In this document: in pieces, positions 2,836-16,943 of the stretch | Numbering within the stretch: the stretch's first letter is position 1 | Layout: the number at the start of each line of letters is the position of its first letter | Assembly: GCF_006345805.1 (NCBI RefSeq) | Contig: NW_021836200.1 | Location: 1-25,323, forward strand | DNA from: Octopus sinensis | Lineage: Eukaryota | Direction of reading: 5' to 3' | DNA: 25,323 bases | Program-made: the position numbers and the translations under genes | Notes under the pieces: model-generated | Database searches by the model: none | What the model was told of the DNA's origin: nothing | What the model saw: only the letters and a program-made list of their open reading frames with translations

Positions 2836-3153
2836 CGGAGTCGGAGACCTCCTTCGGTCCTGACTGACAATGGGATTGCACCTAGAAAGTTACCCTCCCA
2901 GGCACAAGTCCGGGCAAGGTTGTTTATGGAAGGCCAGCAGTCGCCCATGCATACCAGCCTCCCCTCTCCACGCCACCAATGTTATCCAAGGGAAAGGCAA
3001 AGGGGCCGATACAACTTGGCATCAGTGACGTCGCAACTCATTTCTACAGCTGAGGGAACTGGAGCAATGTGAAATAAAGTGTCTTGCTCAAGAACGCAAC
3101 ACGCAGCCCGGTCATAAAATGGACGCTCTAACCAATGAGCCATGCGCCTTCAC
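2836..3153 (-). mobile_element. tRNA-derived SINE, family C-like (my label), B-box region deleted
   Basis: Minus-strand head GGCGCATGGCTCATTGGTTAGAGCG (A box); central TTCTTGAGCAAGACACTTTATTTCACATTGCTCCAG...CTCAGCTG shared with 18815-19138. Confidence 0.85.
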
Positions 3154-3169
3154 AATAAAGATGATGATG

Positions 3170-3242
<73 letters not shown>

Positions 3243-3247
3243 TGATG

Positions 3248-3276
<29 letters not shown>
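3154..3276. repeat. (AAT)n/(GAT)n microsatellite
   Basis: Read directly. Confidence 0.97.
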
Positions 3277-3278
<2 letters not shown>

Positions 3279-3872
3279 CCACATCTCACTCCTCTGGAAC
3301 TTCACCATTCAAACTGACAGGAAGATAGATGCAAATAGGCCAGACATCATATTGAAAGACTTCAAACAAAGAGCATGCCTCCTCATTGATATGACTGTCC
3401 CAATCGATATAAACGTATCTGTCAGGACCTACCAAAAACTGAGCAAATATAAAGATCTTGAAATAGAAATCAGCAAAATGTGGAAGCTGAAGACTAAAAC
3501 AATACCTGTTGTCATAGGTGCCCTGGGAATGATAGCAAAAGGGGCTGATAGCTACCTAACTCAGATACCAGGAAACCCAAAAATGGCAGAAGTTCAAAAG
3601 ATAGTGCTCATGGGAACTGCTCATATCCTACGCAAAATACTCTCTATGTAATCTCAAGGTTTAAAACAACCATAATTTTCGGTTTTTAAAAAAAAAAAAA
3701 AAAAAAAAAACTTTTTTTTTTTAGACATTCATTAGTACAACATCCCCACCCCCCAAATATATGGCACACTAGGCATAACAACAACATGAACTTCCAACCC
3801 TGTTGTCTCTTGAGGTCTCTGGGTGAGACTTGGAGCCAACTTGTACAAATATAAAGCAAAAGTCAAACATAG
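3274..3872 (+). mobile_element. 5'-truncated R4/Dong-type non-LTR retrotransposon: open RLE (PD-(D/E)xK) endonuclease domain 3277-3651 plus 3' UTR
   Basis: LLWNFTIQTDRKIDANRPDIILKD...LLIDMTVP...KLSKYKDL...IPVVIGALG...GTAHILRK carries the RPD...D...K..KY motif of RLE elements; flanked on both sides by (AAT)n. Confidence 0.93.
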
Positions 3873-5213: not shown

Positions 5214-5274
5214 TTTTTTTTCTCTTTCCCTGTTGCCCGCTCTGGGATCTTTCTTTCCTCTCTCTTCCTTCTTT

Positions 5275-5312
5275 ATGTTTCCGACGAAGAGCTCCGCTCG
5301 AAACGTCATACC
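5275..5312 (+). ncRNA. Degenerate minimal type I hammerhead motif (PLE-type) within a ~180-bp repeat fragment (5220-5400)
   Basis: CCGACGA-A-GAGC-TCC-GCTC-GAAA-CG-TC: stem II GAGC/GCTC and palindromic ACGT stem III; the core has U4->C and stem I is weak. Confidence 0.55.
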
Positions 5313-5610
5313 TCCCTGCTTCCATTTCCTGAGCGCCTATTAATAATAATACTGTAATTGTTCCATTGTTGTTGTTTTTTTGTTTCCCGTTTGGATTAAA
5401 ATTATATGTATATATATACATATAAAAGTAAATAAATGGCACAACGAAGCAACGATGTTTACTGGAAAATAGCGAACGTAATAAATACGACGCTAATGTA
5501 TAGCTTCACTGCGTATTTACTAGTAAAGATGCGTGTGTGCAACAAACATGAAAAAAATTGTCTTACCTCTAGGAAGAACATCTGAAAAATGAAAAACCTA
5601 GAAACGGATA

Positions 5611-5682
5611 ATGCAGTACCGGTTTCAGATTCTTCAAAATACGTTTGCCAACATATATTTGATTTATCTTCATCAGCTGAAT
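5611..5682 (-). ncRNA. Type I hammerhead ribozyme, copy 1 (one stem I mismatch)
   Basis: AUUCAG-CUGAUGA-AGAU...AUCU-GAAA-CCGG-UA/CUGCAU; predicted cut between 5617 and 5616. Confidence 0.78.
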
Positions 5683-6039
5683 ATACCTCGACAATATTTC
5701 AAATGTTGCCACATCTATGCCAGTACACTCGTCTGAACGCCAAAACGTTAACAGAACGAGAACAGTGAAGAAGTTTCAATGAAAATAGTAATGCAATACG
5801 AGAGTATTTCTTTCCAGTAAAGGATAGCCCGTGAGGGTAAAATCATACATATAAAAGTAAATAAATGGCACAACGAAGCACCGATATTTACTGGAAAATA
5901 GAGAACGTAATAAATACGACGCTAATGTAGAGCTTCACTGCGTATTTACTAGTAAAGATGCGTGTGTGCAACAAACATGAAAAAAATTGTCTTACCTCTA
6001 GGAAGAACATCTGAAAAATGAAAAACCTAGAAACGGATA

Positions 6040-6111
6040 ATGCAGTACCGGTTTCAGATTCTTCAAAATACGTTTGCCAACATATATTTGATTTATCTTC
6101 ATCAGCTGCAT
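6040..6111 (-). ncRNA. Type I hammerhead ribozyme, copy 2 (intact)
   Basis: Stem I AUGCAG/CUGCAU; core CUGAUGA; stem II AGAU/AUCU extended by UCAAA(U)AUAUGUU-GGCA-AACGUAUUUUGA; GAAA; palindromic ACCGGU stem III; GUA triplet, cut between 6046 and 6045. Confidence 0.87.
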
Positions 6112-6157
6112 ATACCTCTACAATATTTCAAATGTTGCCACATCTATGCCAGTGCAT

Positions 6158-6427
6158 ATATGGGTACAGGACGTCACCAACAGTAAACAACATGAAATAC
6201 GAAGACAAATGAGTTCAATACGCAAATGGAAAACAGGACAAATAAGACAAAGAACGACCCCGAAAGAAAAGAAAGATGATCCCGTGAGAAAGAGAAAGAT
6301 GGATGATGGTCACGTGTGAGCAACGAGGGAGAGAAACGGAGGAAGATGGTGTGACGGAGAACAATAAAGGGGGTAAAAAGGGAATTAGGGAAAGGATGAG
6401 AGAAAAAATATATGTGAGAAGTAAGGA

Positions 6428-6428
<1 letters not shown>
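6158..6428 (-). mobile_element. Non-coding repeat related to 9910-10260, internally deleted
   Basis: GTACAGGACGTCACCAACAGTAAACAACATGAAATACGA...AAGAACGACCC aligns with GTACAGGGCGTAAAAAACAACGTGAACAAAATGAAAAACGA...AAGAACAATCCC. Confidence 0.6.
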
Positions 6429-6462
<34 letters not shown>

Positions 6463-6560
6463 CCGGAGTAAACACATAAATGTGAAACAAGGTGGAAAAA
6501 AGAGTAATCAAATACCAGTGGTAGAGTAATATGCTTTATTTTAAGCAGCAGAAAATTCAA

Positions 6561-6609
6561 CAAAATCTGTTACCTGAGTTTCTCGTTGCCGTTCATCAGA
6601 CAGTTTTTG
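6561..6609 (-). ncRNA. Minimal type I hammerhead ribozyme motif of the PLE
   Basis: CAAAAACUGU-CUGAUGA-ACG-GCAA-CGA-GAAA-CUCAGG-UA/ACAGAUUUUG; stem I pairs 9 of 10; the stem II closing pair is an A-A mismatch. Confidence 0.75.
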
Positions 6610-7598
6610 CTAGAATGGAACTATATATTAATTCAATCTATACTCTTACAACGCTACACCTTTAAAAAGAAATGGACTTGTTAGATTGGCCCTTTAGAAA
6701 AAACGGTCAATCTTCGAGCGATAAACAAAAAGGTCAAAAATATATGTATATATATATAAAAAAACTTATAAAATTATAAAATCCGAGGAAAAAACCGAGG
6801 AAAAAACCTATTGCCGTTAATGAAGACAGTACAAATTAATGCATAGAAATTAAACCTGTTATAAATACTGCAATACATATTATATTAAAATCTACATATA
6901 TATATCAACATACACAAAAGGATGCGCGTAAACGCCATACATACATATACAGACGTATGAATATGAATCTAAATATACACATAAAAGCATGTGTACATAT
7001 ATTCACGCAAACCGTCTCGCACGCAAGCTAAAATTCATCTATGTAGCAATTCTCATATACTGAGCAAGGAGGGGGAACGAAAGAAAGGGAAAGAGAGAAA
7101 AGGAACGAAGGAGGGGTGGAGAAAAAATTGTAACGATGTTATTGGCATCTATAGAGCCAGTATACATACACAAGTTTGAATTGATACATATACATACCGT
7201 CGTGTATATGTGTGCTTAAGCACAAGATACTTTCACTTACACATACACAGATACGCATGCTTACAAATACATATGCTTTGCTATACACATACTTATATAA
7301 ACATTCTAATTTTGACAACATTGCTTTTTTTAAAAAAAACATTGCTTTTAAAAAATGGGTGCATTAATAAAAATATATACGAAAGACATATAAAAAAATA
7401 TAACATCCTATTTTGGGTCATTTATAAATAATCAAGGTAATATAAATAATCAAGGTAATCCTATGCAATACAATAACAGAAAACAAAGTTTGTAGGTTTT
7501 TCCTAATATATATGTAGAAACATAAGACTTTGCTAAAATCCGTCGTAGCGCTCAAGAGTCAAAATCAAAATCAAAATCAAAAATACAAAATATATACT

Positions 7599-8033
7599 CT
7601 ATCCATATGGTATATTTATATTCGACATTTTAAATTTAGCCGCGTGCCTACATAAGTTCATTAACTCACTTCTTTGATTCAAAGAATTATTGTCTTTGAA
7701 TAAGATGTGCATTTTCTCTAATAGGCAAAGTCTGCACTTGAAATTATATTTGTAAGCTCCATGCCTGTATGGTGCCGCCCTGTCCAGAATGCTCCATGTC
7801 ACGTTGAAAGGTGGGGCTTCCTTTTCTTTTAGTTCCCAGACGTATTTTGCTAGGCTGGTTTTCTTCCTATTCTCTGGGAATTTAAAAGAATTCTTATGAG
7901 AATAAAATCTTGTTTTAAATGAATTTTCTGAAGCCCCTGTGTATGTCTTGTATTCCGATGAGCCTTCCACTTGCACCTTGGCTCTATAAACTACTCCTTT
8001 CACTAGACATTTCCCTTCTAACGGACAGGAGCT
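7599..8033 (-). pseudogene. Penelope/Poseidon-type GIY-YIG endonuclease domain (RT missing)
   Basis: SSCPLEGKCLVKGVVYRAKV...YTGASENSFKTRFYSHKNSF...TSLAKYVWELK...WSIL...CRLCLLEK...LNQRSELMNLCRH; open frame with no genuine start, cut off by (TA)n. Confidence 0.93.
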
Positions 8034-8035
8034 TT

Positions 8036-16354: not shown

Positions 16355-16943
16355 AAGCACTTCTCAACTCTTTTTTTTCTTCTTTTGCCTATGGACGCCT
16401 TTTGCTCCCTATTTTACCACACTGGCCCCTCACTGCCATTCGATGTTTAAAACTTCCTATCATTATATTTTTATTAAATATTATTGGGGATTATTTACAT
16501 TATTTGCATTTGACGGATATCTTAGTTGTTTTTAATAGAATTCCCAATAATACAGTTCTATATTTAAAAGATGAGGAATTATCTACACTATTTACATTAT
16601 TTACATTTGACGGATATTTGTCCTCATCTTGTTTGTTGTTAACACGACGTTTCGGCTGATAATGAAGGCTGGAGTGTATATCAGCCGAAATGTTGTGTAA
16701 ACAACAAACAAGATGAGGACAAATATCAGTCAAATGTAAATAATGTAAATAGTGTAGCTAATTCCTCATCTTTTAAATATAGAACTGTATTGTTGGGAAT
16801 TCTATTAAAAACAACTAAAATATTTTATGTATTGTAGAATTATATCCAATTTATTGGACTCAATTTTTAACAGCAAAATTTTATAGGGATCCATAAACCC
16901 ACTCCACCCCAAGGGTCATAAGGACCCCAGTTAAGAACTGCCC
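16355..16943. mobile_element. Older hAT-like MITE interrupted by the palindromic insertion
   Basis: Degenerate TIRs AAGCACTTCTCAAC / GTTAAGAACTGCCC (10/14); subterminal ATGGAC/GGACCCC motifs. Confidence 0.5.
16517..16823. repeat. Inverted repeat with 145-bp arms (16517-16661, 16679-16823) and 17-nt spacer; PLE-type HHR remnant at the centre
   Basis: About 7 mismatches by eye; the centre reads ATGA-A-GGCTG-10 nt-CAGCC-GAAA-TG-TT-GTGT. Confidence 0.95.

What the first reader, a model, noticed from the sequence alone, without database searches (positions are those of the whole stretch)
5416..6153. Retrozyme-like cassette: two tandem type I hammerheads that would excise a 429-nt RNA
Seen: 309-bp direct repeats, each with a complete HHR core on the minus strand (CUGAUGA, long stem II, GAAA, ACCGGU, GUA cut site), no meaningful ORF, and low divergence. 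Cuts at 6046/6045 and 5617/5616 would release exactly one 429-nt unit. Known: metazoan non-LTR retrozymes are tandem type I HHR repeats that yield circular RNAs and are thought to be mobilised by PLEs. A same-strand PLE lies ~300 bp away. The palindromic stem III would let the two copies form a dimeric ribozyme in cis. Inference: a recently active circRNA-producing family, possibly undescribed in this lineage.
Basis: partly seen in the sequence, partly recalled or inferred. Interest (0 to 1): 0.8.

Follow-up and report, generated by a model that had tools for sequence, protein, structure and literature searches.

The report
Self-cutting RNA parasite of Penelope retrotransposons
This is one of more than a thousand scattered copies of a 429-base non-coding repeat that carries a predicted self-cutting hammerhead RNA; its insertion scars match those of Penelope-type (Hydra-clade) jumping genes in the same genome, which likely copy it, possibly from an RNA circle that has not yet been detected.

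Summary
Observation confirmed: two 309-bp repeats offset by 429 nt, each with a type I hammerhead core. The locus is 1.7 turns of a 429-nt unit, a 5'-truncated insertion of a dispersed family (over 1,500 first-look candidates). Stems I and II covary between subfamilies. In 85 sampled insertions, 109 of 117 arms end at one of two fixed points 67 nt apart, nearly always into (TA)n; 28 of 32 inverted insertions use one end on each arm. Hydra-clade Penelope-like elements (PLEs) of this genome show the same double end about 70 nt apart, the known mark of internal reverse-transcription start. No copy sits on an ORF of its own; two are fused, without TA, to one Hydra family (PLE-B). The PLE 300 bp away is an unrelated family (PLE-A). 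This copy's downstream ribozyme carries a rare stem I mismatch and is predicted to misfold. Cleavage and circles are untested; RNA data were inconclusive. Verdict: a new member of a known kind (animal non-LTR retrozyme), with unusually clear genomic evidence for its motor. The scan noted retrozymes before on other DNA (sea squirt), not this family.

The parts
5416..6153 (-). Whole insertion: 1.72 head-to-tail turns of a 429-nt unit, 5'-truncated, 3' end at unit position 201
5617..6045 (-). 429-nt unit, cut site to cut site (predicted excised monomer)
   Evidence: family search
6040..6111 (-). Hammerhead 1 (type I): 6-bp stem I, extended stem II, palindromic ACCGGU stem III, GUA cut 6046/6045; all modelled pairs standard
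   Evidence: weak Rfam HH9 hit
5611..5682 (-). Hammerhead 2, cut 5617/5616; rare U-C mismatch in stem I at 5680; predicted to misfold
5778..5844 (-). 67-nt 'tail' between the two fixed 3' ends of the family (unit positions 201 and 268), inferred reverse-transcription start sites
   Evidence: mechanism from PMC11167929
5405..5415 (.). Short (TA)n-like target remnant at the 3' junction
6459..8035 (-). Neighbour, not part of the element: 5'-truncated young Hydra-clade PLE (PLE-A), endonuclease end of the ORF 7599-8033, long 3' UTR, own small hammerhead at 6599
5214..5415 (+). Neighbour, not part of the element: 3' end of another repeat with a minimal hammerhead-like motif at 5281-5307, tail to tail in the same TA tract

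Best explanation
The locus is a truncated copy of a dispersed, non-coding 429-nt tandem repeat whose predicted hammerhead ribozymes likely cut its transcripts into unit-length RNAs that would be circularised and then copied into TA microsatellites by a Hydra-clade Penelope-like reverse transcriptase, most likely the PLE-B family. Steps: (1) shown: family, unit length, two fixed 3' ends, TA target, variable 5' truncation and 5' inversion; (2) strongly inferred: the hammerhead fold is kept by selection; (3) inferred from the published PLE mechanism: the enzyme nicks (TA)n and starts reverse transcription inside the RNA at unit position 201 or 268, one site per target strand, so it needs no free RNA 3' end and can read a circle; (4) inferred: going round the circle gives 1-3 near-identical turns, while a cut linear monomer gives short copies that stop at the cut; (5) weakly inferred: PLE-B is the motor, from two chimeric insertions. 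My odds: ribozyme active in the family 0.9; motor a Hydra-clade PLE 0.8; circle as a main template 0.6; PLE-B specifically 0.5.
For: 1887, 1784 and 1530 first-look candidates in G000. 117 arms in 85 insertions: 74 end at ~201, 35 at ~268, 8 elsewhere; 102 of 109 canonical ends run into TA; 28 of 32 inverted pairs have one arm of each class and none has two of one class. PLE-A ends cluster at two points 70 nt apart (32 and 15 ends) and PLE-B likewise (25 and 10 ends), all into TA. PMC11167929 shows in vitro that a PLE starts inside its RNA at two sites that define the tail, and extends both target strands. Hydra clade is defined by DKT, CxCx5C and (TA)n insertion; PLE-B has DKT and CSCRNKELC. 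Hammerhead pairs: 94.7% of 1522 cells pair, 73 cells change on both sides against 26.2 +/- 3.6 in shuffles, slid controls 26-41% paired. A sister family about 70% alike (1146 candidates, ~431-nt unit) keeps the fold with different stems and another palindrome. Two chimeras with PLE-B lack TA at the joints: L015 (unit enclosed by PLE-B pieces, 5-nt and 1-nt microhomology) and L166 (unit runs into a PLE-B 3' end). Longest insertions have turns more alike than any other locus: L021 99.8% vs 98.3%, L131 100% vs 97.4-98.9%, L013 99.2% vs 97.7%. 5' ends near the cut: 8 against 1 and 0 in the two flanking windows among 31 insertions found with 3'-end queries, p about 0.001.
Against: No cleavage or circle was observed. 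PMC11167929 found hammerhead cleavage dispensable for insertion in vitro and uncut RNA the main substrate. Only 1 of 9 predicted Xenopus retrozyme dimers cleaved in vitro. The unit has no detectable similarity to PLE-A or PLE-B ends (local scores reached by 287 and 57 of 300 shuffles) or to 20 further Hydra-type loci. Within-insertion identity reached the best outside copy in only 45 of 114 pairs. The number of pairs with a two-sided change (6) does not exceed the shuffles, and related copies inflate the cell counts. The 5'-end excess was not significant in the other 22 insertions (6 vs 3 and 2, p 0.12), the windows were chosen after seeing the data, and TA microhomology may contribute. L166 can also be a nested PLE-B insertion with a deletion; none of 29 other PLE-B loci held the young unit. 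The window's own circle is predicted to bury the ribozyme core.
Confidence: 0.55

Rival explanations
1. Same non-autonomous element and same PLE motor, but the template is linear uncut read-through RNA from multi-turn donor loci; the hammerhead only trims RNA and no circle is needed.
For: PLE insertion in vitro uses uncut RNA and does not need the ribozyme. One contig of a guessed RNA run carries this locus's 5' flank joined to the element, i.e. read-through or DNA. With 45 nt of downstream sequence the active fold is predicted in only 8 of 60 copies, against 26 of 60 when the transcript ends just after stem I.
Against: A lineage that is always 5'-truncated should lose turns, yet insertions of up to 3.2 turns exist with turns more alike than any outside copy. 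Two families 70% alike both keep a ~430-nt unit and an intact fold.
Confidence: 0.27
2. The motor is another TA-targeting PLE clade (Naiad, Neptune or an unsampled family), not Hydra PLE-A or PLE-B.
For: Tails, inverted arms and TA bias are shared by several PLE clades. No sequence link to the Hydra families sampled. A canonical PLE N-terminus was also seen in L091.
Against: Published tails are 30-40 bp, whereas the unit and both Hydra families measured here have about 70 nt. Both chimeras involve PLE-B.
Confidence: 0.1
3. These are 5'-truncated terminal repeats (pLTRs) of an autonomous PLE that the searches missed.
For: Each DNA search scored only the best 40 of more than 1,000 candidates. 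In Xenopus 24 of 57 retrozyme families match known elements, 21 of 22 of them PLEs.
Against: Copies run from the tail straight back to the hammerhead, up to three times; in PLE-A and PLE-B the ORF starts within about 100 nt after the tail. No own ORF adjoins 85 young insertions or 30 sister-family loci.
Confidence: 0.06
4. A local DNA duplication or satellite with a chance hammerhead-like motif.
For: The bare core pattern is found in 23 of 2000 shuffles; Rfam score is far below threshold.
Against: Dispersed copies on many contigs with fixed 3' ends and unrelated flanks; compensatory stem changes.
Confidence: 0.02

Closest known systems
Metazoan non-LTR retrozymes (Cervera and de la Pena 2020, PMC7229834; passages and Discussion read), e.g. 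the 350-390 bp units of the mussel Mytilus galloprovincialis
   Same: Short, low-GC, non-coding tandem units, each with a type I hammerhead; dispersed; coexist with PLEs.
   Different: Unit 429 nt; stem II extended to 43 nt; circles shown there, untested here; that paper only proposes PLEs as motor and, in the passages seen, describes no double 3' end or chimeras.
Vertebrate non-LTR retrozymes as PLE derivatives (Li, Clavereau, Pollet, bioRxiv 10.64898/2026.07.22.740005; parts 1-3 of 5 read; supplements closed)
   Same: Meets their definition (two consecutive units with complete hammerheads); PLE link.
   Different: Their link is co-occurrence and sequence likeness to pLTRs in Xenopus; here there is no likeness to sampled pLTRs and the link comes from insertion scars and chimeras. 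They sampled no mollusc.
Hydra-clade PLEs (Craig et al. 2021, 10.1101/2021.04.23.441226 = PMC8557442; passages and section 11 read)
   Same: (TA)n target, hammerhead in the terminal repeat, partial tandems, inverted 5' arm, tail on one end only.
   Different: No ORF; tail about 67 nt rather than the 30-40 bp given for other PLEs. That paper reports non-autonomous tandem derivatives for Chlamys (MRC1), which resemble their partners at the 3' end; this unit resembles none sampled.
Poseidon PLE of Anolis (Frangieh et al. 2024, PMC11167929; parts 1-2 of 4 read)
   Same: Two internal start sites that define a tail; AT-rich target; both strands extended.
   Different: Autonomous; start sites lie in the ORF; ribozyme protein-assisted and dispensable in vitro; circles not tested in the parts read.
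Newt satellite 2 / axolotl HHR_Amex1 dimeric hammerheads (PMC6155905 passages; PMC7229834 passages)
   Same: Very weak helix III with a palindrome; efficient cleavage as a dimer of tandem copies.
   Different: Dimer action here is inferred from the palindrome only; tertiary loop contacts were not tested.

Membership tests
Animal non-LTR retrozyme | Type I hammerhead in each unit | tested here: met
   Two cores in the window; stems covary across 64 distinct copies (copies were picked by the core pattern, so core invariance is no evidence); copy 2 has one stem I mismatch
Animal non-LTR retrozyme | At least two consecutive hammerhead units in tandem | tested here: met
   Window has two; other loci up to three
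Animal non-LTR retrozyme | Short, low-GC, non-coding unit without LTR organisation | tested here: met
   429 nt, about 35% GC, no frame of 100 aa inside; repeats are turns of one unit. PBS and PPT were not searched for
Animal non-LTR retrozyme | Dispersed mobile family | tested here: met
   Over 1,500 first-look candidates; 85 insertions examined
Animal non-LTR retrozyme | Self-cleavage of the transcript | not testable with these tools
   Only folding predictions and a suggestive excess of 5' ends at the cut
Animal non-LTR retrozyme | Accumulates as unit-length circular RNA | tested here: inconclusive
   Only contigs of guessed RNA runs were available; they cannot show ends, strand or circles
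Terminal repeat (pLTR) of an autonomous PLE | Continuous with an RT + GIY-YIG ORF | tested here: not met
   No own ORF at 85 young insertions or 30 sister loci; no match in the Hydra ORF loci fetched; sample is a small part of the family
PLE-type insertion footprint | Two fixed 3' ends, tail on one arm of inverted insertions, 5' truncation, microsatellite target | tested here: met
   109 of 117 arms; 28 of 32 inverted pairs; 102 of 109 ends into TA
Hydra-clade PLE (for the candidate motors PLE-A and PLE-B) | DKT for DKG, CxCx5C linker, C-terminal endonuclease, (TA)n insertion, hammerhead | tested here: met
   PLE-B: DKT, CSCRNKELC; PLE-A: DKT in five of six long ORFs, linker mostly CNF..., CNC... 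in L097 and L113; TA ends and hammerheads. No tree was built
Hydra-clade PLE (for the candidate motors PLE-A and PLE-B) | Absence of the CCHH motif in the endonuclease | not tested
   No alignment to CCHH-bearing PLEs was made
Dimeric (newt-type) hammerhead | Palindromic weak helix III; faster cleavage as dimer | tested here: inconclusive
   ACCGGU palindrome kept, 98.4% of cells paired; the sister family has another palindrome; kinetics cannot be tested here

The most novel reading that the evidence does not exclude
An animal retrozyme caught in the same insertion event as its motor: a Hydra-clade Penelope reverse transcriptase (PLE-B) that recognises a sequence-unrelated 429-nt RNA circle, starts inside it at two sites, one per target strand, and rolls round it. 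This would name the enzyme and the priming route by which hammerhead RNA circles re-enter animal genomes.
Probability: 0.3. Interest if true: 0.72.

Novelty: new member of a known kind. Interest (0 to 1): 0.45.

Why it matters
How animal retrozymes are copied back into DNA is still an inference from co-occurrence and sequence likeness with PLEs. This family carries the PLE-specific double 3' end with one end per arm, shares its ~70-nt tail length with Hydra-clade elements of the same genome, and is twice fused to one of them. Natural PLE-B copies with open 717-aa frames exist and an in vitro PLE assay is published, so the questions 'which enzyme' and 'circle or linear RNA' can be tested directly. 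The element class itself is known, and five literature searches listed no description of this family; Repbase and Dfam could not be searched and most subscription papers are outside the library.

Tried and rejected
Neighbouring PLE as parent: rejected; separate family, own small hammerhead, no match to the unit in 29 other PLE-A loci or 6 full-length regions. Search for a parent with matching terminal repeat: two more protein searches and 20 of 150 N-terminal hits fetched showed PLE-B, a third family (PLE-C) and older relatives, none matching. Hidden ORF: none. Pfam gave no family for the PLE proteins; relatives carry PF26215/PF28514/PF01541. 'Ribozyme locked in the circle' as a family trait: rejected; 10 of 17 complete circles are predicted to fold both stems, only 4 of 17 bury the core. 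Target-site duplication: not discernible in TA. Expression: no RNA holder listed; contigs of three guessed RNA runs cover the unit in pieces at low summed depth, no joint listed; this is not evidence either way. Sequence look-up in earlier scan notes was blank. Rows to discount: three of the 32 inverted pairs are one tandemly duplicated segment (L170) and L023/L168 look like duplicates, so about 29 are independent; arms within 100 nt of a locus edge were dropped before counting.

Full report
What is there. The minus strand of 5416-6153 holds two 309-bp repeats offset by 429 nt with 6 mismatches, each with a type I hammerhead core and a GUA cut site at 6046/6045 and 5617/5616. Numbering the unit from the cut, the locus is positions 319-429, 1-429 and 1-201: 1.72 turns of one unit. 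It has no frame of 100 aa and about 35% GC. The genome G000 is a 2.72-Gb animal assembly; no call names the organism. My impression that it is a cephalopod mollusc is recalled, and the only named protein relative of the neighbouring PLE came from a bivalve.

The ribozyme. Copy 1 forms a 6-bp stem I, a three-part stem II and an ACCGGU palindrome in place of stem III; copy 2 has a U-C mismatch in stem I. Across 64 distinct family copies 94.7% of 1522 cells pair; 73 cells change on both sides against 26.2 +/- 3.6 in shuffles, and slid structures pair only 26-41%. Two adjacent stem I pairs switch together in 13 copies, one basal stem II pair in 24, one apical pair in 11. Relatedness inflates these counts, the number of covarying pairs (6) equals the shuffle mean, and the copies were picked by the core pattern. 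Stronger: a sister family about 70% alike has different stem I and II sequences and a longer palindrome, yet the same layout and a ~431-nt unit. The two-base loop cannot close a hairpin, so a dimeric fold as in newt satellite 2 is likely (PMC6155905 passages; PMC7229834 passages). Folding predicts both stems in 26 of 60 copies when the RNA ends just after stem I, in 8 of 60 with 45 nt more, and in 10 of 17 complete circles, but not in the window's own circle. That circle is more stable than shuffles (-102.2 against -82.3 +/- 6.0 kcal/mol, 60 shuffles). All six differences between the window's repeats are rare alleles, so this copy has decayed by about 1% per copy since insertion.

The family. 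Searches of G000 gave 1887, 1784 and 1530 first-look candidates, of which 40 were scored each time; near-complete units are 89-98% alike to this one. I examined 117 arms in 85 insertions: 74 end at about 201, 35 at about 268 and 8 elsewhere; 102 of 109 canonical ends run into (TA)n; 5' ends vary. Thirty-two insertions have a head-to-head inverted arm; 28 have one arm ending at 201 and the other at 268, four involve a non-canonical end, none has two of one class (about 29 of the 32 are independent). The longest arm is 1379 nt, 3.2 turns. Copies within an insertion are more alike (median 97.0%) than the median outside copy (92.7%) in 111 of 114 pairs, but reach the best outside copy in only 45 of 114; in the longest insertions they exceed it.

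The motor. Fixed double ends, a tail on one arm only, inversion and microsatellite bias are PLE marks (Craig et al., passages). Frangieh et al. showed in vitro that a PLE starts reverse transcription inside its RNA at two sites, that the stretch between them is the tail, and that both target strands are extended (PMC11167929, parts 1-2). I therefore read 201 and 268 as start sites (inference). The PLE beside the finding (PLE-A) is a very young, abundant Hydra-clade family: 150 scored copies are 94-100% alike in protein, several with frames over 700 aa. A second family, PLE-B, 44% alike to A, has open 717-aa frames; a third and older relatives exist. PLE-A and PLE-B each end at two points about 70 nt apart, into TA, matching the unit's 67 nt and unlike the 30-40 bp in print. 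Neither resembles the unit in sequence. Two of the 85 insertions are fused to PLE-B without TA: in L015 660 nt of the unit, lacking both its normal ends, lie between PLE-B pieces within one TA-bounded stretch, with 1- and 5-nt microhomologies; in L166 the unit stops at 401 and continues as a PLE-B 3' end. Template switching in one event explains both; a nested insertion with deletion can explain L166, and neither was checked on raw long reads. No such joint with the more abundant PLE-A was seen. The reverse search, 30 PLE-B loci, added no new chimera.

Is it just a pLTR? No PLE ORF of its own adjoins any of the 85 insertions or 30 sister-family loci; protein hits were the L015 chimera or separate neighbours. 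In PLE-A and PLE-B the ORF begins shortly after the tail; here the sequence returns to the hammerhead. Only the best 40 candidates per search were seen, so a hidden parent is not excluded.

Circle or line. Internal initiation removes the need for a free RNA 3' end, so a circle is a possible template (inference). Multi-turn insertions with near-identical turns fit rolling copying; a cut linear monomer could give only copies that stop at the cut, and such copies exist. Among 31 non-inverted insertions found with 3'-end queries, 8 start within -12..+21 of a cut against 1 and 0 in equal flanking windows (p about 0.001); among the other 22, 6 against 3 and 2 (p 0.12). The windows were chosen after seeing the data and TA microhomology may help. 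Against: uncut RNA was the main substrate for the anole PLE, and 8 of 9 predicted Xenopus dimers did not cleave. Public runs offered only contigs of guessed RNA libraries; they cover the unit in pieces and one carries this locus's 5' flank, which says nothing on circles.

Known or new. Non-LTR retrozymes are described for coral, mussel and axolotl with circles shown (PMC7229834) and for many vertebrates with a PLE origin proposed (bioRxiv 10.64898/2026.07.22.740005; its supplements were closed and list families I could not see). This element meets every sequence-level criterion and is a new member; cleavage and circles remain untested. Five searches listed no description of this family or of retrozyme-PLE chimeras, within a library that lacks most subscription papers; repeat databases were not searchable. 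Earlier scan notes show retrozymes and a TA-targeting PLE-type tandem repeat in other genomes, none for this sequence. Its added value is the footprint and chimera evidence pointing to a testable motor. Interest 0.45.

Noticed in passing
L066:125-1590 and L092:7950-8960: Two more tandem families with long-stem-II type I hammerheads and palindromic stem III (units about 490 and 532 nt), alike in outline to each other; the genome seems to hold several retrozyme families.
   Followed up: partly
L213-L242 (e.g. G000:C6142:20084-20574): Older sister family, about 70% alike to the unit, ~431-nt unit, 1146 first-look candidates, same double end and TA target, no ORF of its own.
   Followed up: yes
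window 6571-6599: The window's PLE-A hammerhead lacks two bases in stem III relative to other family copies.
   Followed up: partly
L091-L126, L243-L262: At least three Hydra-clade PLE families with long open frames (PLE-A 727 aa, PLE-B 717 aa, PLE-C up to 688 aa); most PLE-A copies have Phe in place of the second Cys of the CxCx5C linker; PLE-B and PLE-C hammerheads differ from PLE-A's.
   Followed up: partly
window 6154-6430: Another repeat directly 5' of the insertion; the same repeat abuts the cut-site 5' end of a copy in L066.
   Followed up: partly
window 16517-16823: 145-nt inverted repeat, 95% complementary, 17 nt apart; possibly a foldback or MITE-like element.
   Followed up: no
window 3139-3651: 170-aa frame resembling the C-terminal endonuclease of an R2/R4/NeSL-type LINE (recalled motif; Pfam gave no hit).
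   Followed up: no
L170: One inverted insertion of the unit occurs three times at about 1.2-1.35 kb spacing, i.e. a later tandem duplication of the whole segment.
   Followed up: no
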